Shown here piece by piece: positions 32,938 to 44,668 of a stretch of DNA of 64,000 nt; position 1 is the first letter of the stretch, and each line of letters begins with the position of its first letter. Under the pieces are notes generated by a model that was given only the letters and a program-made list of their open reading frames with translations, was not told where the DNA came from and did not search any database. The stretch spans positions 14,151 through 78,150 of the forward strand of contig JAWKKG010000002.1 in assembly GCA_041393395.1 (NCBI GenBank). The letters run 5' to 3'. The position numbers and the translations under genes are program-made. The stretch comes from a bacterium. GTDB lineage: Bacteria > ARS69.

Positions 32938-34188
32938 ATGAGCGACAAGCGACGGGTGGTCGTCACCGGAGTCGGGGCGATCACTCCCATCGGCAACACG
33001 GCGCCGGAGTTCTGGCAGGCCGCGAGCACGGGTTCGTGCGGCGCGGGGCCGATCACCCGGTTCGACCCGACGGATCATTCCGTGAAGTTCGCCTGCGAGG
33101 TGAAGGACTTCGACGAGTCCCGGGCCGGCGACCGGAAAGAAGCCCGCAAGATGGATCGCTTCACTCAGTTCGCGATGGTCGCCGCCCTGGAGGCGGCGGA
33201 GGACGCGGGCATCGCTCCCGGCGACGGCATCGACGCGAACCGCTTCGGCGTGCTGATCGGATCGGGAATCGGGGGCATCCAGACCCTCGAGGACCAGAAG
33301 GAAGTCCTCATGGAGAAGGGACCGGGCCGGGTGAGCCCGTTCTTCGTTCCCATGATGATCGTGAACATGGCCACCGGTCTCGTGGCGATCCGTCTCGGCG
33401 CGAAGGGCCCGAGCAACGCCACCGTGACCGCGTGCGCCTCCGGAGCGAACGCGATCGGCGACGCATTCCGCGTCATCTCGTACGGCGACGCCGACGTGAT
33501 GATCGCCGGCGGCGCCGAGGCTCCGATCACCCAGATCGCCGTGGGCGGCTTCGCCAACATGAAGGCGCTGTCGACCCGGAACGACGATCCGATGCACGCG
33601 AGCCGTCCGTTCGATGCGGACCGCGACGGCTTCGTGATCGGAGAGGGAGCGGGAATCGTGGTGCTCGAGGAGCTGGAGCACGCGAAGCGACGGGGAGCCC
33701 GCATCTACTGCGAGCTCGTGGGCTACGGCTACAGCACGGACGCCCATCACATGACCGCGCCCGCCCCCGGAGGAGAAGGTGCCGTCCGGTCGATGCAGGC
33801 CGCGATCCGCGACGCCGGGGTGTCCCCGGCCGACGTCACCTACCTGAACGCGCACGGGACCTCGACGCCGTTGAACGACAAGTACGAGACGGCCGCGATC
33901 AAGACCGTGTTCGGCGAGCACGCCACGCGACTCGCCGTCAGCTCCACGAAATCCATGACCGGGCATCTGCTCGGCGCAGCGGGGGGAATCGAGTTCGTGC
34001 TCCTCGCCTACGCGCATCGCGATGGGCGAGTCCCTCCGACCATCAACTACAAGACCAAAGACCCCGAGTGCGATCTCGACTATGTGCCGAACGAGGCACG
34101 CGACCTGAAAGTGAATGTCGCCCTGACGAACTCACTCGGCTTCGGCGGTCACAACGTGACGTTGGCGACCAGGAGTCATGAAGGATAA
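32938..34188 (+). CDS. fabF: 3-oxoacyl-ACP synthase II
   Basis: Active-site Cys '[16 protein letters not shown]'. His motifs '[10 protein letters not shown]', 'GHLLGAAGG'. Confidence 0.95.
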
Positions 34189-35923
34189 TCAGACGAACGC
34201 GATCCAGGGAGCGGTCTCGGTTCTCGAGAAGCTCTTCTTCGGAACGCGCAAAGGACCGTCGGGGGAGCGTTCCCGGCTGCTGCGGAAGCTCCAGAAGCGG
34301 ATCGGTGTCCGCTTCACCGACATCTCTCTGCTCGAACAGGCGTTGACCCACCGCTCGTACTCGCACGTCACCGCGCAGACGCGCAACGACTCGAACGAGC
34401 GCATGGAGTTCCTCGGGGACTCCGTGCTCGGGCTCTCCGTCAGCCAGTTCCTGTATCTGCAGTTCCCGGAGCGCTCGGAAGGAGCGCTCTCCAAGATGAA
34501 GTCGCTGCTCGTGAGCCGGAAGGTGCTCTCCACGATCGCGAAGGAGGTCGGACTCGGCGAGTTCGTGCTCCTGTCCGGCGAGGAGTCGGAGATGGGCGGT
34601 CGCGACCGCACGTCGATCCTCGCGGACTCGTTCGAGGGCGTGATCGGCGCGATCTATCTCGATCAGGGCTACCGGACCGCGAACCGGTTCATCCAGAAGT
34701 TCCTGCTCGCGAACATCCACGAGATCCTGAAGGACGACGATCACACGAACTTCAAGTCGCTGCTCCAGGAGTACGTCCAGTCCAAGCGGCTGTCGCATCC
34801 CGTCTACCGTGTCCGCAAGGAAGAGGGACCGGAGCACGAGAAGGAGTTCGCGATCGACGTCGTGGTCAAGGGCGAGGTCTGGGGCACCGGTCGCGGCAAG
34901 AGCAAGAAGGACGCGGAGCAGAACGCGGCCCGCGCGGCGCTCGAGAAGCGACAGGGCAAGGTTGCCGGACGTCGCGGCGGGAACGGCGGCAGCTCGCCTC
35001 CCGAGAACGGTGACGCCGGCGAGAGCGCTCCGACCCGCGGTCGCGGGCGCCGGCGCGGACGCGGCGAGGCCACCGAGGTGCAGGCCGAGGCGCGATCCCG
35101 TGGTGATCATGGAATCGTCGCGTCGCGAGAGAAGCTGCGCGAGGCTCGTCAGGCCGAGGAGGACAGTCGTCGGCGCGGGCGCGATCGTCGTCCTTCGCGG
35201 CGTGGTCGTGCGGAATCGGAGGCCGCGGACAGCGAGGCGCCGGTCGAGGCGATGGAGAACGGCGGTCGGGGACGCCGGGCGGAGGGCGACAGCGACTCGC
35301 GGCCGCGTTCCGAGCGTCGGCGTCGGCGACGGCGGCGCGGCGGGGGCGGCGGTGCCGACGACGTTTCGCCGGGTGAGACGATGACGGCGGGGACCGGAGC
35401 CGCCGCTTCGGTGGTCGCGGCCTCGGACGTCGATGCCGGAACCGAACGGGAGACCCCGGCGAGGGACGAGTTCGAATCGCGACCGGTCGTCGAGAGCGAA
35501 TCGCGGGCGGAGTTGCGCGAGTCCGAACGGGTCGAGGCGCTGGCGCGTCCGGCACCGGAACGGGAGCGCCGCGAGCCCGAGGCTTCGAGCGAGACGGAGC
35601 GCCCACGCCGGGTCGAGCCGGCGCGGTTGGAGACCGCGGAAGAAGTGGAGTCCGAGCCCGCGGCGGAATCCTCCGAGCCGGAAGGCTTCGTGCGGCGCCG
35701 TCGTACCCGGCGGGAGTCGCGCCCGACGCCGTCCGGGGGAGGCGGTGCGGAGCGTCCTCCCGTGTCGACTGCGGTCGAGCCTCTCGACCCGGCGTCGTCG
35801 TCTTCGGACGGGGACGAGGCGGAGGTCGGCTCGACCGCGTCGGTAGACGGTGGGACCGGCGAAGAGTCCGCCGGATTCACGCGACGCAAGCGACGTCAGG
35901 TGCGCGGACTCCGCCGCCGCTAG
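34178..35923 (+). CDS. rnc: Ribonuclease III with a ~330-aa Arg/Glu/Gly-rich low-complexity C-terminal extension
   Basis: RNase III signature '[12 protein letters not shown]' and a dsRBD ending near residue ~250, in the conserved position after fabF. The same frame then continues open for ~330 more codons with a GC3-rich coding pattern. Confidence 0.8.
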
Positions 35924-38193
35924 ACGTTCGTCCCGGCGGGCGGCGGCGTCGCGTTCCGGCGCCGTCGCCCGCGCAGCGTCCCCCCGAGCAGCAGCAGCAT
36001 CCCGGCCGCTGCGGCCGCGCCCAGCATCGCGTCGGCGAAGTCGGAAGCGTTCGCCCCCGCGTGCGCCGCGACCGGCGGCAATGCCTCGTCTCTGCCGCGC
36101 ACCACGAACGCGCCCCACAGGAACGGATCGTTCAGGTCGGAGCGTCCCGAGAGGATCATCGCGCCGCGCGCCCGGCGCAACGCCTCCGACGGACGATCGC
36201 CTGCCGCGAGACGCTCGTGCAGTGCGGCCATCAGCTTCCCGATCGCGCGATCCTCGACCTTCCACAGCGCGCCGATCACCGAGCCCGCGCCGGCGTCGAG
36301 GAATGCGGACGAGAGAACGCCCACCGACGTGCGCCCCGCGACGTCCGAGAGTCCGGTCTCGCAGCCGGAGAGCACCACGATGCGTGCCGGGACATCGATG
36401 CGGCGGATCTCTGCCGGCTCGAGTCGACCGTCGCCGTCCTCGGCGGGAGCGAGAAGTACGGCGGGGGACCGGGGATCCGTGTGCGCGGCGAGGTGCAGGA
36501 TCGCGGGAGGGGGGCGATCGCGAACCCGCGCCTCCGTCGCGTCGGCGCCCAGCCACACCTCGACCTCGGAACCCGTGCGCGCGATCGCGTCCGCCTCGTC
36601 ACGCGCGCCGGGCAGCGGAACGAGCGGGGACGTCGGGCCGAGCACCGGGTCCGCCAGGACGCGGACGGCGCGGGTCGTGTTCGCGTCCGAATCCGGGGGC
36701 GGCCCCGAGACCGTCGCGTCCACGAGCGACCGGACGATGCCGAGGGGGCCGGCCCCGGTGGGAAGCACGGCGAACGGCAGGGCCTGGAGGGGACCGTCCG
36801 GCTCGAGCAGCATGCGGCCGTGCGACTGTTCCGCGTCGGCGGGAAACAAGCGCCCGACGAGGACCCGCCCGACGTCGTCCCGCTCGGTGGCGCGCGACGG
36901 GTCGGCGAGGAGGCCGCGGAACAGCAGGATCCACTCGCGCAGCTCGTCGGCCGCGCCGCAGTCGCGGGCGCGGTGGAGCGGGGCGGAGGATCCCGGCCAC
37001 TCCGCGAACGCGAGCACGCGCTCGCTGCCCCAGAACCAAGCGATCGCGAGGTCGTCTCCCTCCCGGGTGATTGCTCCGTGGGGATCCGCCCCGCGCACCC
37101 GGCGCACCCACTCGCGCGCCTCGTCGAACCGGGCCGGCTCCACGTCGAAGGCAGCGCCGTCCGTCGACGCCGGAAACCAGAGGTCGAGCGCCGTCTCGAC
37201 CCATGAGCGCGCGACCCGACACCGTGCGTCCGTTTCCGCGACGCCGCTCGCCTCCTCGATCCACGCGCGCGCCTGCGCGAGACACACGCCGATCCGGCGG
37301 GCGGCTTCCAAGCGATCGCCTCCGGCGACGGCATCGAGCGCGGCGCGCTGTTCCACGTCGGCGCGATCCCGCGCATCCCGCGCGAGGGTCCGGGCCCGCG
37401 TCGTCGCGTCGTGCGCGTCTTGCGGTCGTCGCGCCTTGGTGCAGGCTTCCGCGAGCGCGAGTCGGGCGCGACGCTCGATCGCGAGCGCCGTGTCCGCGCG
37501 CGCGCCGTCGGCGACGCGAGCGAGCGCGGCCGCGGCCTCGCGCGGGCGCCCGCGGTCGAGGTCGAGGAGGCCGCGCACGAATCCGATCTCCAGCTCCTCC
37601 CGGGGTGACGGCTTCGCGCGTTCGGCGACGTCGAGTGCCCGCTCCGCCGCGTCGAGGTGATCGGTGAGCCGGCGGGCGTCGGCCACGATGCGCCATGCGC
37701 GCGCCTCGGTCGCGCCGTCATCCGCCGCGCGCGCGCGTTCCGCGGCCCGCAGCGCGATCGCCTCGGCCGCTTCCCAGCGACCTTCCCGCAATCGGTGCTG
37801 CGCCTGGTTCGTGAGGACGAACCCGGCCGTGTCGTCCGGCACGTCCGTCGTCAGCGCGCCGGTCGCCATCTCGAGGAGCAGCGCGGCCTCGGCGTGATTG
37901 CCGGCCCGCGAAGCTTCCGCCGCCGCGTTGGACAGATGCAGTGCACGATCGCCGGGCTCGTCGGTGGCCTCCGCCGCGCGCCGGAACAGTCGCGTCGCGT
38001 CGCCGTGCTGGCCCGCGCGCGAAGCGGCAAGTGCGCGCGCGGCCCACGAACTCGCGTCGTCGCGCAACGTGTCGGCGGGGGCATCGCTCGCGTCGACGCG
38101 CTGCGCGAGGGCGGCCGCCGGACCGAGGATTCCGGGGCCCGGCCCGAGCGTGAGCGCGAGAAGAAGGAGAATCAGGGTGTGACGGCCGACCAC
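35920..38193 (-). CDS. Secreted TPR-like repeat + CHAT (caspase-like) domain protein with C-terminal hydrophobic segment and RRRR tail (757 aa)
   Basis: GTG start gives the signal peptide 'VVGRHTLILLLLALTLGPGPGILGPAAALAQ'. N-terminal Ala/Arg-rich helical repeats (TPR-like). C-terminal CHAT with His/Cys dyad contexts 'AILHLAAHTDP' and 'IVVLSGCETG'. Ends '...[32 protein letters not shown]'. The upstream 361 codons of ORF 35920..39276 are the antisense of the anti-sigma/sigma genes and are rejected. Confidence 0.65.
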   Translation of the reverse strand: MVGRHTLILLLLALTLGPGPGILGPAAALAQRVDASDAPADTLRDDASSWAARALAASRAGQHGDATRLFRRAAEATDEPGDRALHLSNAAAEASRAGNHAEAALLLEMATGALTTDVPDDTAGFVLTNQAQHRLREGRWEAAEAIALRAAERARAADDGATEARAWRIVADARRLTDHLDAAERALDVAERAKPSPREELEIGFVRGLLDLDRGRPREAAAALARVADGARADTALAIERRARLALAEACTKARRPQDAHDATTRARTLARDARDRADVEQRAALDAVAGGDRLEAARRIGVCLAQARAWIEEASGVAETDARCRVARSWVETALDLWFPASTDGAAFDVEPARFDEAREWVRRVRGADPHGAITREGDDLAIAWFWGSERVLAFAEWPGSSAPLHRARDCGAADELREWILLFRGLLADPSRATERDDVGRVLVGRLFPADAEQSHGRMLLEPDGPLQALPFAVLPTGAGPLGIVRSLVDATVSGPPPDSDANTTRAVRVLADPVLGPTSPLVPLPGARDEADAIARTGSEVEVWLGADATEARVRDRPPPAILHLAAHTDPRSPAVLLAPAEDGDGRLEPAEIRRIDVPARIVVLSGCETGLSDVAGRTSVGVLSSAFLDAGAGSVIGALWKVEDRAIGKLMAALHERLAAGDRPSEALRRARGAMILSGRSDLNDPFLWGAFVVRGRDEALPPVAAHAGANASDFADAMLGAAAAAGMLLLLGGTLRGRRRRNATPPPAGTNV

Positions 38194-38972
38194 TCGAACC
38201 GGCCGGGCGCGGACGAGACTTCCGATCCGTCCTCGCGTCGGGCGCGCACGATCCAGTGCAACTCGTGCGCCCCCTCGCCGAAGCGCTGCGAGATCTCCGC
38301 GCCGGGCAACAGCCAAGATGCCTCCTCCGTGGGGCCTAGCTCCGCGACGGTCGTTCCCGCCACGTCGACCAGCACGACGTGATACGAACGGGCGCCGGCG
38401 ACCGGCCCCCACGCGAATCGTACGTCGCCTCGGAGGTTCTCGTCTTCCTTCGGGGTGATCCGCTCGATCTGTTGCGCGCTCGCCGACGCGTGGGGATTCG
38501 TGCGCAGCTCCGCGCCGCGCTCCGGAGTGGACTCGCGGAGCACGAGCGCCACGAGCAACGTCGCCGCGGCGGCGCCGAGGAGGGCCGGGGTGGGTGAGGC
38601 GAGGAGCTCGCGCATCCGCCGGAAGATCCCGGGATCCTGCGAGCGCGACGACGGGACGCCGGCCGCCCGCACCTCGCGCAGCAACTCGCTCGGCGGGGTC
38701 GCGGCGAGGTCCGGCACGTCCTCGAGCGCCGCGCGGAGCTCGCCGAAGGCGCGGGCGAGTGCGGGATCCTCGGTGAGGCGACGCCGAGCCCGCGCGGCGT
38801 CCTCTCCGGAGAGCGTGCCGTCCAGCAGGCCGAGCAGCTCCTCGTCCAGCTCGTCGAGCTCGGCCGGGGTGCCGTCGCCGGAGGAGCGGGTCGCATCGCT
38901 CCAGGCGGACAGCAGGAAGGCCGTCTCGGGAAAGTCGCGCTCGGGAGATCGATCGTCGGGTCGGGTCGTCAT
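38172..38972 (-). CDS. Membrane-anchored anti-sigma factor: N-terminal anti-sigma domain, 1 TM, periplasmic C-terminal domain
   Basis: 'ELDEELLGLLDGTLSGEDAARARRRLTEDPALARAFGELRAALED' RskA/ChrR-like anti-sigma N-domain lacking Cys. TM 'ALLGAAAATLLVALVL'. ~120-aa periplasmic domain. ATG overlaps the ECF sigma stop (ATGA). Confidence 0.6.
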   Translation of the reverse strand: MTTRPDDRSPERDFPETAFLLSAWSDATRSSGDGTPAELDELDEELLGLLDGTLSGEDAARARRRLTEDPALARAFGELRAALEDVPDLAATPPSELLREVRAAGVPSSRSQDPGIFRRMRELLASPTPALLGAAAATLLVALVLRESTPERGAELRTNPHASASAQQIERITPKEDENLRGDVRFAWGPVAGARSYHVVLVDVAGTTVAELGPTEEASWLLPGAEISQRFGEGAHELHWIVRARREDGSEVSSAPGRFEWSAVTP

Positions 38973-39721
38973 GGTTCCCTCTCGTCCGGATCGGACACGC
39001 CCGCGGCGGCATTTTGAAACAGGGCGGCCCGAAACGTCTCCGCCGCCTCGGAGAAGGCCCGTTCGTCCCAGTCGGCCGACTCGCGGGCGCGAGCGAGGGC
39101 GGCACACTTGCCGAGCGCCTTGCGGAGCCGGTACGCCGCGTCGTTCGTGTCGCGCGCGCCGATCGCCTCGGCGAGCTCGCGGAGTTTGAGGCCACCGGCG
39201 AAGCGCAGGGTGAGGATCTCGCGATCCGCGGGCTCGAGTGCCGCCAGTGCGTCGCGGGCGGCGTGCCGGCCGACACCCACGGCCCAGGTCTCCCGCCGCG
39301 TCGTGGCCGCGAGGTCCTCCTCGGCCCGGGCCTCGCCCTCCAGCCGCTCCCGCGACGTCGCCTCCACGCCCTTGCGCCGGTAGAGACGGAAGCGCTCCGT
39401 CTTCACGACCCGGAACAGGTAGGTGCGGAAATCGCAGCGGCCCTCGAACGCCCGGAGCCGCCGGAAGTCCTCCGAGCGGAGCCGCTCGAACACTCCGCGG
39501 AATACCTCCGCGGAGAACTCCTCGGGGTCCGGGTGACCCTGCGCGAACTTCAGCGCCAGGGACCAGACGAACTTGGAGTATTTCTCGACAAAGAGCTGCC
39601 AACCTTTTGCGGGATCGGTGGTTAGCATTCCTTGGATGTCGGAGAACTCGAGCCCGGACCGGGAGTCCTCGAGCCGCGCGAGTCGGTCCAGAAATTCCCG
39701 GACGGGGCGTTCCTGAGCCAT
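38969..39721 (-). CDS. ECF-type RNA polymerase sigma-70 family factor with C-terminal extension
   Basis: Region 2 'FVEKYSKFVWSLALKF...FRTYLFRVVKTERFRLYRRK'. Region 4 'LEPADREILTLRFAGGLKLRELAEAIGARDTNDAAYRLRKAL'. ~45-aa extra C-terminus. Confidence 0.75.
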   Translation of the reverse strand: MAQERPVREFLDRLARLEDSRSGLEFSDIQGMLTTDPAKGWQLFVEKYSKFVWSLALKFAQGHPDPEEFSAEVFRGVFERLRSEDFRRLRAFEGRCDFRTYLFRVVKTERFRLYRRKGVEATSRERLEGEARAEEDLAATTRRETWAVGVGRHAARDALAALEPADREILTLRFAGGLKLRELAEAIGARDTNDAAYRLRKALGKCAALARARESADWDERAFSEAAETFRAALFQNAAAGVSDPDEREP

Positions 39722-39901
39722 ACGCGGGCCTCCGGTCGATCGCCGCGGCGAGGGTATCATGCGATCCGGGTGCGGTCACCCGAGGAGCCGCCGCGGCGAT
39801 CCTCCCGCTTGCCCATCAAGTCGATGCCGGGAAACGTCGATCCTTTGTCAGGATTGGGCGGCTTTGCCGGGAGCCCGGGGCAGGCGAGGAGTGGGGGCGT
39901 G

Positions 39902-42900
39902 ATGGCCGGAATCCACGAGAGCGGCGCGGGCTCGCGGTCCTCGTTCGAGGATTCGCTCGCGTTCCTCGTGTTGTTCTCGGAAGAGCTGCTCGATCTCGTG
40001 CCCGACGGGATCGGCGTGCTGGATGAGCAGCTCCGCGTGCGCGCGGCGAACCACGCGTTCCTCCGCGCGTTCGAGTTCGACTCCCTCGAGTCCGCCCGCG
40101 GCGTTTCCCTCGCCGAGGATCCCCTGATGCGCGTGCCGCTGCCCGACTGGCGCGACGCGCCGCTGCGCGAGATCGTGCCGGAGCTGCTTGCACGGGACGA
40201 GTCGGTCTCGCTGAACGCGGTGGAAGTACGGCATCCCGCGAGCGGCGAGCTTCGAACGTGGTCCCTGAAGGTCGTCCCCTGGGATACGGAGGACCCGCGC
40301 TTCCGGCGGCTGCTCCTCTGGGTCCACCCCTGGACCGACCGCCGGCCGGCGGATGCGTCGCCGGCACCGGACGTCACGTCGCCTGAGTTCCCGGCAGAGC
40401 ACCTCGCGCCCGACGCGGAAGGGCTCGCCCCGCCGGCGGAGCACCCCGCGCCCGACGCCGACGAGCCCGTCCCGCCGGCGGAGGTCTCCGCGCCGGGCGG
40501 CGCGGCGTCGGAGGAGACGTCCCCGGAGGATGCCGCCGAGCTGTTCCGCCTGACGAACCTCACCGCCCGCCTGCTCGAGACGTTGCCCGTGGGGATCGCG
40601 GTCCTCGACGGAGCGAGGCACGTGAAGGCGGCGAGCCACCGGCTCGAGACTCTCTTCGGCCGGGCGTTTCGCCGACACGGCCCGGGAGACCGCCACCTGT
40701 TCGCCGTGTTCCCGGAGCTGCGGGATCCGGCGTTCGACGCGTGGCTGGCCGGATCCCCCACCGATCGATTCTCTCACCCGGCGATTCCGCCGGGAGACCC
40801 CACTGTCCGATTCGAAGTCGAGGTCCAGTCCACGGGCTCCGTGGACGATGAAGGAACCGAGACCTTACTCGTCTTCCACGAGGTCGAAGCCATGCAACCC
40901 ACGCCGTCCGCGCCCGAACCGACGGTCGGAGGCCCGACTCCGGTCGGCCCCGCCGCCATTCTCGCCTCCGACAACCTCGGCCGCTGGCCGCAAGCGCCTT
41001 CCGATCGGCTGCTGATCGTGGAAGCCGACTCCTGGACGCGGATGGTGCTGTCGGACGCGCTCCGCGAGGGCGGATTCGAGGATCTCGTGTTCTGCGAGAA
41101 CCCGGCCGCGGTGTTCGACACCCAGGATCCGGCCGCATTCGCCGTGATCCTCGTGGGGCTCGACGGCGACACGAGCGGACTCCGTGCGCTGTGCGAGAGA
41201 CTCGTGCGCGACGCCGCGCGCGTTCCGGTGCTCGGCATCACGGATCGTACGGCCGAGGACGCGTTCGAGGTCGTGGGAGACGCGGCGCTCGCCGGCGTGC
41301 TGCCCGGCCTGCGGGGCAAGGAGCTGCGCGAGGTCGTGGCCGGCCTGATGCGGCGGGGCGCCGCGGAAGACGCGGCCGGATTCCCGGCCGAAGACGTCGC
41401 GCCGGATCTGACCATGGCGGCGGAGGGTGCGGAGAAGGCGGACGCGTTCGAGGTCGTGGTGCTGGGCGCCGGCGACGCCGACGTCTCCGTGCTGCGCATG
41501 CTCTACCGCGTGCCTCACGTGCGCGTGCGATTCGTGTTCGATCCGGATCCGGGCGCGTTCGGACTCTCGCTGTCCCAGAATCTCGGCATCCCGGCGATCT
41601 CGGGCGGCGTCTCGCTCGAGTTCCAGAACCCGCCCGCCGCCGTGGTGCTCGCGCGGTCCGGACTCGAGGAGCACCTCGCGCCGCTCGGTCTCGCGGAGGT
41701 CCCGCGCGTCACGCGTGACGAGCTGGAGCTGTTCCTCGTCGATCCCGCGTCGTACCTGGACGTCGAGAACGGCGCGGAGCGGGAGGCCGACGCCGGGGAA
41801 GCGGCGACGGAAGCCGTCGTCACCGAACCCGCCCGCGACGACTGGAGGGAGGACTCGCGTCCCGAAGACGAGCCCGTCGAGCCGACGGCCGACTGGGACA
41901 CGGCGGGCGACGACGGAACCGATCACGCACGGGCCGAGGCGCCCGCGACGGACACGGAGCCGAGCGCGCCCGCCGACGCATTCGAGGACTGGACCTCCGC
42001 CTTCGAGACGACGTCCGCTCCCGATCCCGCGCCGCCCGCGGAGGCGACGAACGAGCCGGCGCCGGAGCCGCCGCCCGCGGCCGCCGCGGCGCCGCGTCCC
42101 GCCCCGGCGATTCCGCCGGCCCCGGCGGCTCGTCCGCGCCCGACCACGCCGCTGCCCGCGCCGCCGCCGAAGCGCCCGGAGCTCGGCGCGTTCGCGGACC
42201 CGTTCTCCCCGGACTTCGCGGTCAGCGCGGGGCTGCCGGAGGACGACGAACCGGTGCGTCCGAACGCCCGGGTGGAATCGCTGCTCGAAGCGCTCGAGCT
42301 GCTGCTGGACTTCGACCGCTTCTCGTCCCACGTGCTGAAGCTCGCGCTCGATCTCACGAACGGCGCGTCCGGCAGCCTGATGCTCCTGCAGGAGGATCGC
42401 CGCGCGCTGCGGATCATCGCGGCGGCCGGTCTCTCCGACATCGTCGTGCAGAAGACCCGGCAGCGAGTCGGCGAGGGGATCGCGGGCCGCGTCGCCGCGG
42501 ACGGCGAGCCGCTCCTCCTCGTGGGCACGATCGGTGATGAACGCTTCCGCCAGCGGAGCGAGCGCAAGGAGATCCGCTCTTCGGTGTGCGCGCCCGTGAT
42601 CGCCGAGGGGCAGGTCATCGGCGTGCTGAACATCAACTCCGATCCGACGAATCACCCGTTCGACGAGACGCAGCTTCGCACCGTGGCGGCGCTCGGTCGC
42701 CAGCTCGGCAGCCCGCTCGATCGCTCGCGCCAGCTGCGCCGGATGCGCGGCCGTTCCTTCGAGCTGTCCGTGCGCGCGGAGATCGAAGCGATCGCGTCGT
42801 CGCAGGACGACATGGTCAGTCGCATGCGGCGGATCACGGCGCGCCTCGTGCAGATGCTCGACATCGACACCTGCGCGATCTGGCTGCTGGACGAGGCGCG

Positions 42901-43780
42901 CCACGGCCTGACGCTGCGCGCCGTCTCCGGTGTGACCGTGGCGTCGATGGATGCGGTGACGGTGCCGGTGGGCACGGGACTCGTGGGCTGGGTCGCGAAC
43001 AACCTGCGACCGCTCGTCCTGCGGAACTCGGCCGACGACCCGAACGACGCCACGCGCCTCACGAGCACCGGCGTGCCGATCCGCTGGCACACGGAGCTCG
43101 TGGGCGTGCTGGCCGTGGAGTCGACCTCGAAGAACACGACCGACGACGATCGACTCGGTCTCCTCGCCTCGGTGGCATCCGTGATCGGCGAGCAGATCGG
43201 CGTCTCGCGCGCGTACGAGGACTCGGAGCGGAAGGTCACGATGCTGTCGGCCCTGTCCGAGCTCGGGGTGGCGTTCGCCGCGGCGCAGGAGAGCTCGAAC
43301 CTCGCGAAGCTCGTCACGTTCTCGGCGTCGACCGTGCTCGAGTCCGACGTCGCCACGATCCGGTTCCGGCGCGTGGACGCGCCGAACCCCACCGGCACCC
43401 ACGACTTCGAGCTGCTCGCCTCCCACGGCGGGTCGATCGGGGGCGTGGGCGATCCGCTCGGGGATCTCGAGGAGTACATCACGCGTGAAGTGATCGCGAA
43501 GCGGAACCCGTGCCGCGACGCCGACCTGCCGCTGCAGGACATCGAGCCGCTCATGCAGCGGTCGAACGTCGCGTCGTTCCTCGGCGCGCCGATGATGTCC
43601 GGGCGGGACCTCGTGGGCGTGGTGGTGGTGTACCGCGTGCAGGACGCGATCGGACGCAACGTCGGCTATCGCGACGAGGAGATCGAGATCGCGATGCGTC
43701 TCGCCGACTACGCCGCGGCCGCCGCGGCCCGGTTCGTCGGCGCGACGGAGCCGGACGACGACTACGACGCGCAGCACTAG
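39902..43780 (+). CDS. Large multidomain signalling protein: 2x PAS-like, REC receiver, ~130-aa Pro/Ala-rich linker, 3x GAF; no recognisable output domain (1292 aa)
   Basis: PAS-like 'LLDLVPDGIGVLDEQLRVRAANHAFL' and 'LLETLPVGIAVLDGARHVKAASHRLE'. REC 'LLIVEADSWTRMVLSDALREGGFEDLVFCENPA...VILVGLDGDTSG'. Linker 'PAPEPPPAAAAAPRPAPAIPPAPAARPRPTTPLPAPPPKRP'. GAF segments with 'GIAGRVAADGEPLLL', 'GTGLVGWVANNLRPLVL' and a third C-terminal one. ATG 39902 chosen because upstream ORF sequence overlaps the divergent sigma gene. Confidence 0.75.
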   Translation: MAGIHESGAGSRSSFEDSLAFLVLFSEELLDLVPDGIGVLDEQLRVRAANHAFLRAFEFDSLESARGVSLAEDPLMRVPLPDWRDAPLREIVPELLARDESVSLNAVEVRHPASGELRTWSLKVVPWDTEDPRFRRLLLWVHPWTDRRPADASPAPDVTSPEFPAEHLAPDAEGLAPPAEHPAPDADEPVPPAEVSAPGGAASEETSPEDAAELFRLTNLTARLLETLPVGIAVLDGARHVKAASHRLETLFGRAFRRHGPGDRHLFAVFPELRDPAFDAWLAGSPTDRFSHPAIPPGDPTVRFEVEVQSTGSVDDEGTETLLVFHEVEAMQPTPSAPEPTVGGPTPVGPAAILASDNLGRWPQAPSDRLLIVEADSWTRMVLSDALREGGFEDLVFCENPAAVFDTQDPAAFAVILVGLDGDTSGLRALCERLVRDAARVPVLGITDRTAEDAFEVVGDAALAGVLPGLRGKELREVVAGLMRRGAAEDAAGFPAEDVAPDLTMAAEGAEKADAFEVVVLGAGDADVSVLRMLYRVPHVRVRFVFDPDPGAFGLSLSQNLGIPAISGGVSLEFQNPPAAVVLARSGLEEHLAPLGLAEVPRVTRDELELFLVDPASYLDVENGAEREADAGEAATEAVVTEPARDDWREDSRPEDEPVEPTADWDTAGDDGTDHARAEAPATDTEPSAPADAFEDWTSAFETTSAPDPAPPAEATNEPAPEPPPAAAAAPRPAPAIPPAPAARPRPTTPLPAPPPKRPELGAFADPFSPDFAVSAGLPEDDEPVRPNARVESLLEALELLLDFDRFSSHVLKLALDLTNGASGSLMLLQEDRRALRIIAAAGLSDIVVQKTRQRVGEGIAGRVAADGEPLLLVGTIGDERFRQRSERKEIRSSVCAPVIAEGQVIGVLNINSDPTNHPFDETQLRTVAALGRQLGSPLDRSRQLRRMRGRSFELSVRAEIEAIASSQDDMVSRMRRITARLVQMLDIDTCAIWLLDEARHGLTLRAVSGVTVASMDAVTVPVGTGLVGWVANNLRPLVLRNSADDPNDATRLTSTGVPIRWHTELVGVLAVESTSKNTTDDDRLGLLASVASVIGEQIGVSRAYEDSERKVTMLSALSELGVAFAAAQESSNLAKLVTFSASTVLESDVATIRFRRVDAPNPTGTHDFELLASHGGSIGGVGDPLGDLEEYITREVIAKRNPCRDADLPLQDIEPLMQRSNVASFLGAPMMSGRDLVGVVVVYRVQDAIGRNVGYRDEEIEIAMRLADYAAAAAARFVGATEPDDDYDAQH

Positions 43781-43789
43781 GGGCCTCGC

Positions 43790-44668
43790 TTGGAATCGAA
43801 CCTCACGCTCGCCGAACGCACGCGGCGTCGACTCGATCGGGTCGACGACGTTCCGACGTTGCCTCCCGTGCTGCTCATGGTGTGGGAGCTCACCGGCCGC
43901 TCGGACTCGTCGGCGGCGGATCTCGCGCGCGCGATCGGCTCGGATCCCGGACTGACGGGGGCCGTGCTCCGTCTCGCGAACTCCGCGTACTTCGGCTTCC
44001 CGCGCAAGATCGGCACCGTGAAGCAGGCGATCGTCGTGCTGGGCTTCGACACGGTGCGCAGTCTCGCGACCGGCGCCTCCGTGATGCGCGCGCTCGGACC
44101 GAGCTCGCCGAGCGGCATGGATGCAGGCGAGTTCCTGCGTCACTCCATGGTCACCGCGATGGCCGCGCGTCTGCTCGTGGAGCGTCGCTGGCGGGAGCTC
44201 GCCGGATCGGCGTTCTGCGGCGGGGTGCTGCACGATCTCGGCAAACTCGTGATCGCGGAGTACCTCGCCGAAGCGAACGCGGAGATCGGTTCCCGCGTGG
44301 CGGGCGGTGCCTTGCGCGAGGACGCCGAACGCGAGACGCTGGGGATGACTCACGCGGAGATCGGCGGCTGGTTTGCGGACCGCTGGAGCCTGCCGGAAGA
44401 GCTGGCCGCCGCGGTGAGATGGCACCATGATCCGGCCGGAGCCGGCGATCGCGAACGCTTCGCGGCCGCGGTTCACGTGGGAGACGTGCTGGCCCATCGG
44501 GTCGGCGCGGGCGGGAGCGGACGGACGGAGCCGCCTGCCCTCCGTCCGGAGGCTTGCACGATTCTCGGCCTCCCCGCGGACGAGCTCGGGGAGTGGACGG
44601 AACGCGTGGCTGCCCTGACGGTCGAGATGCCGTCGGCGGAGGCCGCGCTCGGCCTGGGGGCGAAATGA
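43790..44668 (+). CDS. HDOD (HD-related output domain) protein
   Basis: 'VPTLPPVLLMVWEL...LAQAIGSDPGLTGAVLRLANSAYFG...IGTVKQAIVVLGFDTVRSLA' HDOD signature. TTG start 10 nt after the upstream stop. Confidence 0.7.
   Translation: MESNLTLAERTRRRLDRVDDVPTLPPVLLMVWELTGRSDSSAADLARAIGSDPGLTGAVLRLANSAYFGFPRKIGTVKQAIVVLGFDTVRSLATGASVMRALGPSSPSGMDAGEFLRHSMVTAMAARLLVERRWRELAGSAFCGGVLHDLGKLVIAEYLAEANAEIGSRVAGGALREDAERETLGMTHAEIGGWFADRWSLPEELAAAVRWHHDPAGAGDRERFAAAVHVGDVLAHRVGAGGSGRTEPPALRPEACTILGLPADELGEWTERVAALTVEMPSAEAALGLGAK

What the first reader, a model, noticed from the sequence alone, without database searches (positions are those of the whole stretch)
35920..39721. ECF sigma / anti-sigma / secreted TPR-CHAT protease operon: a CRISPR-less counterpart of the Craspase RpoE-Csx30-Csx29 module
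Seen in sequence: three minus-strand genes are packed with overlaps (ATGA overlap sigma to anti-sigma; 22-nt overlap anti-sigma to CHAT).
(i) An ECF sigma factor with a C-terminal extension.
(ii) A single-pass anti-sigma with a Cys-less RskA/ChrR-type N-domain and a ~120-aa periplasmic domain.
(iii) A 757-aa protein with Sec signal peptide, TPR-like helical repeats and a C-terminal CHAT caspase-like domain (His in 'HLAAHTDP', Cys in 'VLSGCETG').
Established knowledge: in type III-E CRISPR systems the TPR-CHAT protease Csx29 cleaves Csx30, which controls an ECF sigma factor (RpoE). Here there are no cas genes in the window.
Inference: the signal peptide on the protease and the periplasmic domain on the anti-sigma suggest the CHAT protein is a periplasmic site-1 protease. 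It would cleave the anti-sigma on an envelope or infection signal, releasing the ECF sigma. That would be a regulated-proteolysis switch built from the same parts as Craspase but wired to an extracytoplasmic input.
Basis: partly seen in the sequence, partly recalled or inferred. Interest (0 to 1): 0.8.

Follow-up and report, generated by a model that had tools for sequence, protein, structure and literature searches.

The report
Sigma, anti-sigma and periplasmic caspase-like protease
A Gemmatimonadota chromosome carries a gene switch (an ECF sigma factor and its membrane-bound inhibitor) next to a separate caspase-like protease that sits outside the cytoplasm; this is a two-protein version of the recently solved DdvS/DdvA system of Myxococcus, and the trio recurs widely in soil bacteria.

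Summary
Three overlapping minus-strand genes encode:
- an ECF sigma factor (38969-39721);
- a single-pass, Cys-less anti-sigma-like protein with a periplasmic Fn3-like domain (38172-38972);

The trio is not a chance neighbourhood. It recurs in Gemmatimonadota and in Thermoanaerobaculia. Relatives of the anti-sigma lie next to CHAT genes in many soil-metagenome contigs, often convergently. The anti-sigma family has about 1,700 cluster representatives at E<=1e-30.

The locus lies among housekeeping genes (fab genes, rnc, gap, pgk), with no cas or defence genes.

The closest known system is M. xanthus DdvS/DdvA, where the anti-sigma and a periplasmic TPR-CHAT are one polypeptide. Its authors already proposed CHAT-mediated site-1 cleavage but did not prove it. 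Resemblance to Craspase is at the level of fold only.

A conserved Leu-[Met/Leu/Arg] motif in the disordered periplasmic linker of the anti-sigma is a candidate cleavage site.

I rate this a new (split) variant of a known kind, useful because protease and substrate are separate proteins.

The parts
38969..39721 (-). ECF sigma factor gene (250 aa). It has a roughly 40-aa N-terminal extension and a roughly 45-aa C-terminal extension.
   Evidence: TIGR02937 at 59 bits; Sigma70_r2 over residues 44-117 and r4_2 over 154-191. 72% identical to the L002 orthologue, tail included. GGAGG lies 8 nt upstream of the ATG at 39721.
38172..38972 (-). Single-pass anti-sigma-like gene (266 aa). Its start overlaps the sigma stop (ATGA).
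   Evidence: Orthologues are P0058 (43-45% identity) and L002 (51%). Thermoanaerobaculia relatives carry a canonical HxxxCxxC motif.
38721..38867 (-). Putative cytoplasmic anti-sigma domain (residues 36-84). The zinc ligands are lost.
   Evidence: Three helices (36-51, 56-68, 70-84) at pLDDT 68-77. Aligns with the ZAS segment of relatives. NF052375 is below its cut-off.
38529..38594 (-). Transmembrane helix of the anti-sigma (residues about 127-148).
   Evidence: Hydropathy; helix 129-148 in the model.
38502..38507 (-). Leu156-Arg157 in the disordered periplasmic linker. Candidate cleavage or docking motif L-[M/L/R].
   Evidence: L156 is invariant in A8. The motif lies about 26-30 residues before the F.W motif in every sequence where that motif was found (26 of the 28 examined, from all clades). 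The linker 149-170 has pLDDT below 50. A functional role is inference only.
38187..38462 (-). Periplasmic Fn3/Ig-like beta-sandwich of the anti-sigma (residues 171-262).
   Evidence: pLDDT 82-92. Foldseek matches CopC and Fn3 modules at E 1e-5. A family HMM built without this clade aligns 'FAWGPVAGARSYHVVLVD', domain i-E 0.004.
35920..38193 (-). TPR-CHAT protein gene (757 aa). It overlaps the anti-sigma gene by 22 nt and the convergent rnc gene by 4 nt.
   Evidence: AF2 model has pLDDT 87.8 and pTM 0.79.
38104..38193 (-). Signal-peptide-like N-terminus (residues 1-30, ...AALA|QR).
   Evidence: Hydropathy. The equivalent in P0001 is ...DAFA|QA, and L002 has one in frame. No dedicated signal-peptide predictor was available.
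37096..38055 (-). TPR-like helical repeat region (residues 47-366).
   Evidence: 16 paired helices in the model; weak TPR_12; TPR proteins dominate the profile hits.
36094..36951 (-). CHAT caspase-like domain (residues 415-700). Includes His571 (36481-36483) and Cys611 (36361-36363).
   Evidence: PF12770 at E 1.4e-44, covering profile positions 6-288 of 289. Dyad conservation. Structural matches to Csx29, separase and DdvA.
35956..36048 (-). C-terminal transmembrane anchor (residues 716-746) followed by RGRRRR.
   Evidence: Hydropathy and model helix. Conserved in P0001-P0003.
39816..39861 (-). Conserved intergenic block between the sigma gene and the divergent PAS/GAF gene. It contains the palindrome ATCCT-N5-AGGAT. 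Possibly a promoter or operator.
   Evidence: Nearly identical in L002, although the flanking DNA has diverged. Unique in the window and among the loci. No function was tested.

Best explanation
The locus encodes a three-component envelope-signalling module.
- An ECF sigma factor is held at the inner membrane by a single-pass anti-sigma. That anti-sigma has a zinc-less class-I-like N-domain, a TM helix, a disordered linker and a periplasmic Fn3-like domain.
- A separately encoded, secreted and C-terminally membrane-tethered TPR-CHAT caspase-like protease is its periplasmic partner.

In effect this is M. xanthus DdvA split into two polypeptides.

Most likely mechanism (inferred, not shown):
1. 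On an unknown periplasmic signal sensed through the TPR region, the CHAT domain cuts the anti-sigma in its periplasmic linker. The candidate site is the conserved L156-R157 motif.
2. This site-1 cleavage exposes the stub to an RseP-type site-2 protease and then to cytoplasmic proteases.
3. The sigma factor is released.

Shown here: the domain identities, the topology logic, the conserved dyad, and the conserved gene association across phyla.
Inferred: physical interaction, cleavage, the signal, and the regulon.
For: Domain calls and overlaps that suggest translational coupling.

The trio is conserved:
- In a 58%-identity relative, L002 (sigma 72% and anti-sigma 51% identical).
- In Thermoanaerobaculia: L004/L005, L089 and L090.

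Selecting by the anti-sigma: 5 of 5 contexts have an adjacent CHAT gene (L004, L089, L090, L091, L093).

Selecting by CHAT (79 metagenome loci):
- 9 carry a strong same-family anti-sigma plus a sigma-like ORF. These are convergent to the CHAT gene.
- 2 more are partial and co-directional.
- 15 of the 57 evaluable loci have an ECF-like sigma ORF within 3 kb. Density is 6.1 per 100 kb near CHAT against 2.6 per 100 kb farther away, Poisson P about 0.001.

Natural fusions of anti-sigma and TPR-CHAT exist:
- P0032 has zf-HC2, a TM segment, TPR and CHAT, and is preceded by a sigma gene with a 4-nt overlap.
- DdvA itself is such a fusion (PMC11506125).

Structure:
- The model has pLDDT 87.8.
- Foldseek's top hit is DdvA, E 7e-15, 19% identity over about 700 columns.
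- DdvA is the only CHAT-bearing PDB chain among the top 60 hits of the family profile, E 1.6e-24.

The dyad is conserved. The L-[M/L/R] motif is conserved in a disordered linker.

The convergent arrangements argue against the CHAT protein being a mere co-transcribed output of the sigma.
Against: - No cleavage, binding or regulon data exist for this locus. Even for DdvA the site-1 protease role is unproven: H862A and C907A mutants behaved like wild type under the conditions tested (PMC11506125).
- The window's anti-sigma is only weakly tied to the large family when its own clade is left out of the HMM: E 4.8e-5 in a database of about 5,700 ORFs, domain i-E 0.004.
- Its N-domain lacks the zinc ligands and scores below every curated anti-sigma cut-off.
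- The window's sigma is only 21% identical to the atypical long sigma of the Acidobacteriota-type trios. The Gemmatimonadota trio may therefore be partly convergent.
- Most CHAT relatives sampled (about three quarters) have no adjacent sigma.
- A distant relative of the anti-sigma pairs with an NHL-repeat protein instead of a CHAT protein.
- No complex model could be computed.
Confidence: 0.45

Rival explanations
1. The TPR-CHAT protein is a periplasmic sensor or co-anti-sigma rather than the site-1 protease. It binds the Fn3-like domain or linker of the anti-sigma and shields it from generic site-1 and site-2 proteases, much as RseB does for RseA or as the bulky DdvA C-domain does against RseP. 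Its protease activity is then directed at itself or at an incoming signal protein, and loss of the shield activates the sigma.
For: The same co-occurrence and fusion evidence as for the main explanation applies. In DdvA, removing the TPR-CHAT domain is enough for RseP-dependent degradation, and dyad mutants had no phenotype (PMC11506125). The large TPR surface suggests protein binding.
Against: The strict conservation of the His/Cys dyad and of a linear motif in the anti-sigma linker is more easily explained by an enzyme-substrate relation. No binding data exist.
Confidence: 0.27
2. The CHAT protein is simply an output of the sigma: an envelope protease expressed from the autoregulated operon to degrade periplasmic or surface proteins under stress. 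It plays no part in controlling the anti-sigma.
For: It is co-directional with overlapping reading frames in the window. Conserved neighbours of ECF genes can be targets rather than regulators (PMC7826278). Most secreted TPR-CHAT relatives lack an adjacent sigma, so they function independently.
Against: In at least 9 loci the CHAT gene is convergent to the sigma/anti-sigma pair and so is not co-transcribed, yet the adjacency is kept. Fusion proteins join the anti-sigma and the TPR-CHAT in one chain (PMC11506125). Every anti-sigma-selected context has a CHAT gene.
Confidence: 0.15
3. The locus is a degenerate or CRISPR-less descendant of the type III-E Craspase module (Csx29-Csx30-CASP-sigma) and serves anti-phage defence.
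Against: The Csx29 family model scores 17 bits against a cut-off of 300. The protein is secreted and membrane-anchored, not cytoplasmic. The anti-sigma is a TM protein with no similarity found to Csx30. There is no Cas7-11 or any cas gene, and PADLOC gives no hit above noise. The neighbours are plsX-fabH-fabD-fabF-rnc and gap-pgk, and this synteny is kept in relatives.
Confidence: 0.03

Closest known systems
DdvS/DdvA of Myxococcus xanthus (ECF sigma plus a transmembrane anti-sigma with a periplasmic TPR-CHAT; PDB 8ROT/8RW5; PMC11506125, PMC6061681)
   Same: - ECF sigma gene immediately upstream.
- Anti-sigma N-domain of the ZAS lineage, then a single TM helix.
- TPR-CHAT with a His/Cys dyad on the periplasmic side.
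- Best Foldseek match (E 7e-15, 19% identity) and best CHAT-bearing PDB match by sequence profile.
- The same proposed logic: CHAT as site-1 protease, followed by RseP.
   Different: - Here the anti-sigma and the TPR-CHAT are two genes.
- The anti-sigma has its own small Fn3-like periplasmic domain.
- The CHAT protein has a signal peptide and a C-terminal anchor.
- The zinc ligands are absent.
- No CBASS/CRISPR regulon is nearby; the setting is housekeeping.
- Different phylum. Published DdvA-like fusions were reported only in Myxococcota and one Comamonas.
Craspase: type III-E Cas7-11 with Csx29 (TPR-CHAT), Csx30 and CASP-sigma/RpoE (PMC10028731)
   Different: Craspase is cytoplasmic and RNA-activated through Cas7-11. 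Csx30 is soluble and unrelated to this TM anti-sigma. The Csx29 model is not met (17 bits against 300). No cas genes are present.
Canonical regulated intramembrane proteolysis of anti-sigma factors (E. coli DegS/RseP-RseA-sigmaE; B. subtilis PrsW/RasP-RsiW)
   Same: A single-pass anti-sigma with a periplasmic domain. A dedicated extracytoplasmic site-1 protease is proposed, followed by a site-2 protease.
   Different: In those systems the site-1 protease is a serine protease (DegS) or a metalloprotease (PrsW). It is not a caspase-like cysteine protease and is usually not encoded in the sigma operon.
ECF54 group (Actinobacteria), whose conserved gene context includes CHAT, subtilase and carboxypeptidase proteins (PMC8999054)
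   Same: An ECF sigma with a CHAT-domain protein conserved in its neighbourhood, and proteolytic control proposed.
   Different: ECF54 has no anti-sigma factor and is actinobacterial. Here a TM anti-sigma lies between the sigma and CHAT genes. The phylogenetic placement of this sigma was not tested.

Membership tests
ECF (group IV) sigma-70 factors | Regions sigma2 and sigma4 only, matching the ECF superfamily model above its cut-off | tested here: met
   TIGR02937 at 59 bits against a cut-off of 42.9; Sigma70_r2 at 24.7 against 24; r4_2 at 26.1 against 25.7.
ECF (group IV) sigma-70 factors | Co-encoded cognate anti-sigma directly downstream | tested here: met
   ATGA overlap with a TM protein carrying a ZAS-like N-segment. 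Binding was not tested.
Class I / ZAS anti-sigma factors | N-terminal helical anti-sigma domain recognised by curated models | tested here: inconclusive
   NF052375 at 22.6 bits against 100; no Pfam zf-HC2 hit. The model shows three helices at pLDDT 68-77. Relatives do score on zf-HC2, RsrA and ChrR models.
Class I / ZAS anti-sigma factors | HxxxCxxC zinc-binding motif | tested here: not met
   The window protein has no Cys at all in this segment. Thermoanaerobaculia relatives have 'THAxDCxxC', and the large family has two copies.
CHAT (PF12770) caspase-like cysteine proteases | CHAT domain model above threshold, with a conserved catalytic His and Cys | tested here: met
   E 1.4e-44, 153 bits. 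C611 and H567 are invariant and H571 is >=90% conserved in 57 sequences. Fold matches to Csx29, separase, DdvA and gingipain.
CHAT (PF12770) caspase-like cysteine proteases | Demonstrated peptidase activity | not testable with these tools
   Needs biochemistry.
DdvS/DdvA-type system | Anti-sigma domain, TM helix and periplasmic TPR-CHAT on one polypeptide | tested here: not met
   Two separate genes with a 22-nt overlap. The fused form is seen in P0032/L092.
DdvS/DdvA-type system | TPR-CHAT structurally like the DdvA C-terminal domain and located in the periplasm | tested here: met
DdvS/DdvA-type system | Controls an adjacent CBASS/CRISPR defence island | tested here: not met
   No PADLOC hits above noise. 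The neighbours are fab genes, rnc, a PAS/GAF gene, HDOD, gap and pgk. The regulon itself is unknown.
DdvS/DdvA-type system | Dimeric arrowhead architecture; active site lacking the three-helix motif | not tested
Craspase (type III-E) module | Csx29 family membership and association with Cas7-11 | tested here: not met
   NF041237 at 17 bits against 300. No cas genes in the 64 kb window.
Craspase (type III-E) module | Csx30-type soluble inhibitor as the substrate | tested here: not met
   The middle protein is a TM protein with an Fn3-like domain. No PDB sequence hit to Csx30 at E<=10.
Conserved sigma / anti-sigma(Fn3) / TPR-CHAT trio found here in metagenomes | Anti-sigma periplasmic domain homologous to the large family (F.W...Y.V..D ... 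W.V.A motif) | tested here: inconclusive
   An HMM that includes the window sequence itself (A8) scores it at E 4e-48. An HMM that excludes the window clade gives E 4.8e-5, domain i-E 0.004. The linker motif and the gene context agree.

The most novel reading that the evidence does not exclude
A widespread and so far undescribed class of ECF signalling, found in Acidobacteriota and Gemmatimonadota, in which a secreted caspase-like TPR-CHAT protease encoded beside the sigma/anti-sigma pair is the dedicated site-1 protease. It would recognise a conserved L-[M/L/R](G) motif in the anti-sigma's disordered periplasmic linker. DdvA would then be the fused special case of this class.
Probability: 0.35. 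Interest if true: 0.75.

Novelty: new variant of a known kind. Interest (0 to 1): 0.58.

Why it matters
Whether a periplasmic CHAT domain really performs the site-1 cut that starts anti-sigma proteolysis is the open question left by the DdvA structure. In DdvA the enzyme and its presumed substrate are one chain and the signal is unknown, which makes the test hard.

In this split version the protease and the substrate are separate, small and separately expressible proteins. The hypothesis can therefore be tested by simple co-expression or in-vitro cleavage.

The data also suggest that caspase-like control of ECF sigma factors is not a myxobacterial curiosity tied to phage defence. It looks like a common envelope-signalling design in soil phyla: the anti-sigma family has about 1,700 cluster representatives at E<=1e-30.

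Tried and rejected
- Complex prediction. There is no interface model.
- Genome-contig scan with the CHAT protein. It gave only one partial locus, L003 (Gemmatimonadetes MAG, 96% identity). This was useful for taxonomy only.
- The 22-sequence alignment A3 was too diverse to seed a metagenome scan. I used the 5-sequence A4 instead.
- Single-sequence and profile searches of PDB with the sigma and the anti-sigma gave nothing significant.
- The sigma-70 promoter and terminator scan of 35700-40000 found nothing. I could not assign an ECF-type -35/-10 within the conserved intergenic block from only two sequences.
- PADLOC gave no defence-system hit.
- The Casas-Pastor ECF classification has no mention of CHAT in its main text, and its supplements are not held.
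- The DUF928 lead: the big-family periplasmic domain scores 17-20 bits, below the gathering score of 26, and the window protein does not hit it. I left it as a lead.
- A motif search for an RseP-like M50 protease in the window found none. This says nothing about the rest of the genome.
- My first count of sigma adjacency looked only at co-directional upstream genes and underestimated the association. It was corrected after the anti-sigma HMM revealed the convergent arrangement.
Full report
**1. What is there**

The window is about 70% G+C. A 96%-identical fragment of the CHAT gene comes from a Gemmatimonadetes MAG. The middle protein is recorded in NCBI as R3B81_00260 of an unclassified 'bacterium' MAG, on a 1.16-Mb contig.

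- Sigma: 38969-39721.
- Anti-sigma-like gene: 38172-38972, with an ATGA overlap.
- TPR-CHAT gene: 35920-38193, with a GTG start and a 22-nt overlap.

The sigma meets the ECF superfamily model: TIGR02937 at 59 bits, with r2 and r4_2 just above threshold. It has a roughly 45-aa tail after region 4, and that tail is conserved in its orthologue.

The 757-aa protein has a full-length CHAT domain (PF12770, E 1.4e-44). C611 and H567 are invariant and H571 is nearly invariant across 57 homologues.

An AlphaFold model built on 57 sequences is confident (pLDDT 87.8, pTM 0.79). It shows, in order:
- an N-terminal hydrophobic helix;
- 16 TPR-like helices (residues 47-366);
- a small beta unit;
- the CHAT domain (415-700);
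- a short linker;
- a C-terminal helix (716-746) followed by RGRRRR.

It is conserved in the close homologues P0001-P0003. A signal peptide at one end and a positive-inside tail at the other place the TPR-CHAT body in the periplasm, tethered to the inner membrane about 15 residues from the CHAT domain.

**2. The middle protein**

No curated model recognises it above threshold. The best is NF052375 'antisigma' at 22.6 bits against a cut-off of 100.

Its relatives settle what it is.
- In Thermoanaerobaculia homologues the segment that aligns with 'LGLLDGTLSGEDAARARRRLTEDPALARAF' reads 'ELLARVAEKSADAVDREIVETHAxDCxxCRAEL'. That is a canonical ZAS HxxxCxxC motif.
- Members of the larger family score on zf-HC2, RsrA and ChrR models.

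So the window protein is a ZAS-lineage anti-sigma that has lost its zinc ligands.

The AlphaFold model (8 sequences, pLDDT 65 overall) gives:
- three N-terminal helices at pLDDT 68-77;
- a TM helix at 129-148;
- a disordered linker at 149-170;
- a confident beta-sandwich at 171-262 (pLDDT 82-92). This domain matches Fn3 and CopC folds.

**3. Is the trio more than a chance neighbourhood?**

Yes.

Close relatives:
- L002, with a CHAT protein 58% identical, has the same sigma (72% identity), the same anti-sigma (51%) and the CHAT gene in the same order. It also shares the flanking PAS/GAF gene.
- The convergent rnc flank is confirmed in L001 (RNase III and dsRBD domain hits). In L002 the convergent ORF is a partial 303-aa ORF with no family hit, so rnc there is only inferred from position.

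A second lineage (Thermoanaerobaculia; L004/L005, L089, L090) has:
- a divergent sigma-like gene of 275 aa;
- a ZAS anti-sigma of 289-297 aa with the same periplasmic motif;
- a CHAT protein of 713-750 aa, again with overlapping reading frames.

The HMM of the anti-sigma family showed that my first count had missed a convergent arrangement, sigma -> anti-sigma -> <- CHAT.
- Among 79 metagenome loci fetched solely for having a distant CHAT relative, nine carry a strong family member (E 1e-12 to 1e-68) directly beside the CHAT gene. A sigma-like ORF lies behind it.
- Two more have partial co-directional copies at contig ends.
- Several others have other ZAS anti-sigma/sigma pairs (L021, L036, L037, L046, L068).
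- Fifteen of the 57 evaluable loci have an ECF-like sigma within 3 kb of CHAT. Density is 6.1 per 100 kb near CHAT against 2.6 per 100 kb farther away, Poisson P about 0.001.

Going the other way, all five contexts reached through the anti-sigma have a CHAT gene adjacent. A weaker relative, P0065, pairs with an NHL-repeat protein instead.

An exhaustive profile search finds 1,679 cluster representatives of the anti-sigma family at E<=1e-30. Most are full-length proteins of 390-500 aa.

Caveats:
- When the window's own clade is left out of the HMM, the window protein matches only at E 4.8e-5, domain i-E 0.004.
- Its sigma is only 21% identical to the atypical long sigmas of the other trios.
- The Gemmatimonadota trio is therefore either a divergent offshoot or partly convergent.

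**4. Context**

The neighbours are plsX, fabH, fabD, fabF and rnc on one side. On the other side are a PAS/GAF protein, an HDOD protein, gap and pgk. PADLOC finds nothing. This is a conserved chromosomal position, not a defence island.

**5. Comparison with what is known**

The literature search immediately returned M. xanthus DdvS/DdvA. This is an ECF sigma plus a transmembrane ZAS anti-sigma whose roughly 900-residue periplasmic domain is a TPR-CHAT. Its authors proposed that the CHAT cleaves the linker in trans, acting as the site-1 protease before RseP. Dyad mutants had no phenotype, and the signal is unknown (PMC11506125, PMC6061681).

Structural comparisons:
- Foldseek ranks DdvA first for the window model (E 7e-15, 19% identity over about 700 columns).
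- DdvA is the only CHAT-bearing PDB chain among the top 60 hits of the family profile (E 1.6e-24).
- So the fold is shared by all three, and which is 'closest' depends on the method.

Fused, DdvA-like proteins also turned up among the homologues. P0032 has zf-HC2, a TM segment, TPR and CHAT, and is preceded by a sigma gene with a 4-nt overlap. A fusion in some genomes and separate genes in others is classic evidence that the two proteins work together.

Membership of the Craspase module fails on every specific feature:
- the Csx29 model scores 17 bits against 300;
- there is no Cas7-11;
- there is no Csx30-like protein;
- the CHAT protein is extracytoplasmic.

An ECF-CHAT association has also been noted for the actinobacterial group ECF54, but that group has no anti-sigma.

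Within the searchable literature I found no description of the split sigma/anti-sigma/secreted TPR-CHAT trio. Supplementary tables of the ECF classification could not be read.

**6. Mechanism**

The evidence establishes a functionally linked module. It favours direct interplay between the TPR-CHAT protein and the periplasmic part of the anti-sigma. It does not say whether the CHAT cuts the anti-sigma.

One new observation bears on this. In the otherwise variable linker, which the model predicts to be disordered, a Leu-[Met/Leu/Arg] dipeptide is conserved about 26-30 residues before the first conserved strand of the Fn3-like domain. It is usually followed by Gly. It is present in every sequence in which the F.W anchor motif was found (26 of 28 examined, all clades), and in the window it is L156-R157. 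Craspases cut after Leu or Met and separase cuts after Arg (as summarised in PMC11506125). This makes the dipeptide a reasonable candidate cleavage or docking site, but that is inference.

I give about 0.45 to the site-1 protease model, about 0.27 to a shielding or sensor role, about 0.15 to CHAT being merely an output, and very little to a Craspase-derived defence role.

**7. Verdict**

Novelty: a split variant of the DdvS/DdvA kind, apparently widespread and undescribed.

Its value is practical. Because enzyme and putative substrate are separate here, the unproven CHAT site-1 protease hypothesis becomes directly testable.

Noticed in passing
window 34178-35923 (+): The RNase III gene encodes 581 aa. 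A normal RNase III plus dsRBD core (residues about 48-257) is followed by a roughly 320-aa Arg/Glu/Gly/Ser-rich tail. Its stop overlaps the convergent CHAT gene's stop by 4 nt. A long-tailed rnc convergent to the CHAT gene is also present in L001.
   Followed up: partly
window 39816-39861; L002 181-226: A roughly 46-nt intergenic block between the sigma gene and the divergent PAS/GAF gene is almost identical in a relative whose proteins are only 58-72% identical. It contains the palindrome ATCCT-N5-AGGAT and, on the + strand, GGAAAC. It could be the sigma's own promoter or operator, or that of the PAS/GAF gene.
   Followed up: partly
window 39893-43780 (+) and 43790-44668 (+): A very large PAS-PAS-GAFx3 protein is transcribed divergently from the sigma operon and is followed by an HDOD protein. 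The listed ORF is 1382 aa, but the real start is probably the ATG near 39893. The divergent arrangement is conserved in L002.
   Followed up: no
L021 512-6903: A four-gene cluster: a long ECF-like sigma; a soluble protein with two zf-HC2 motifs and no TM segment; a CHAT-TM-DUF4384 protein; and a second, secreted TPR-CHAT protein.
   Followed up: partly
L049 2399-8839: One secreted TPR-CHAT gene is flanked by two different sigma/anti-sigma pairs. The upstream co-directional pair has an anti-sigma ending in a TonB_C domain. The downstream convergent pair is of the Fn3/TPR-hairpin family.
   Followed up: partly
L094 1070-5600: A weak relative of the anti-sigma (P0065) with its long sigma is convergent to an 805-aa NHL-repeat protein rather than a CHAT protein. 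This suggests the periplasmic partner can be swapped.
   Followed up: no
L025, L053, L050, L029, L080, L091 (sigma ORFs listed): The sigma of the large trio family is atypical. It is about 300-340 aa, has a roughly 150-aa insert between sigma2 and sigma4, and has a highly conserved C-terminus '...LWN.LPLDD..IA..LG.(T/S)RQQVINLRKSARERLARRL'. It scores below the TIGR02937 cut-off and has no Pfam hit.
   Followed up: partly
P0067-P0073 and similar hits: The Fn3-like module of the anti-sigma (profile positions about 150-230) also occurs as 7-34 tandem copies in giant proteins of 1,000-3,800 aa. Big-family anti-sigmas give sub-threshold hits to Pfam DUF928.
   Followed up: no
one search list (P0011, P0015, P0017, P0025, P0029, P0040, P0042, P0047, P0049): Many otherwise unrelated secreted TPR-CHAT proteins end in a hydrophobic helix followed by an Arg-rich tail, like the window protein. 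This may be a common tail-anchor or an unrecognised C-terminal sorting signal. There were only faint hits to LPXTG/LAVTG anchor models.
   Followed up: no
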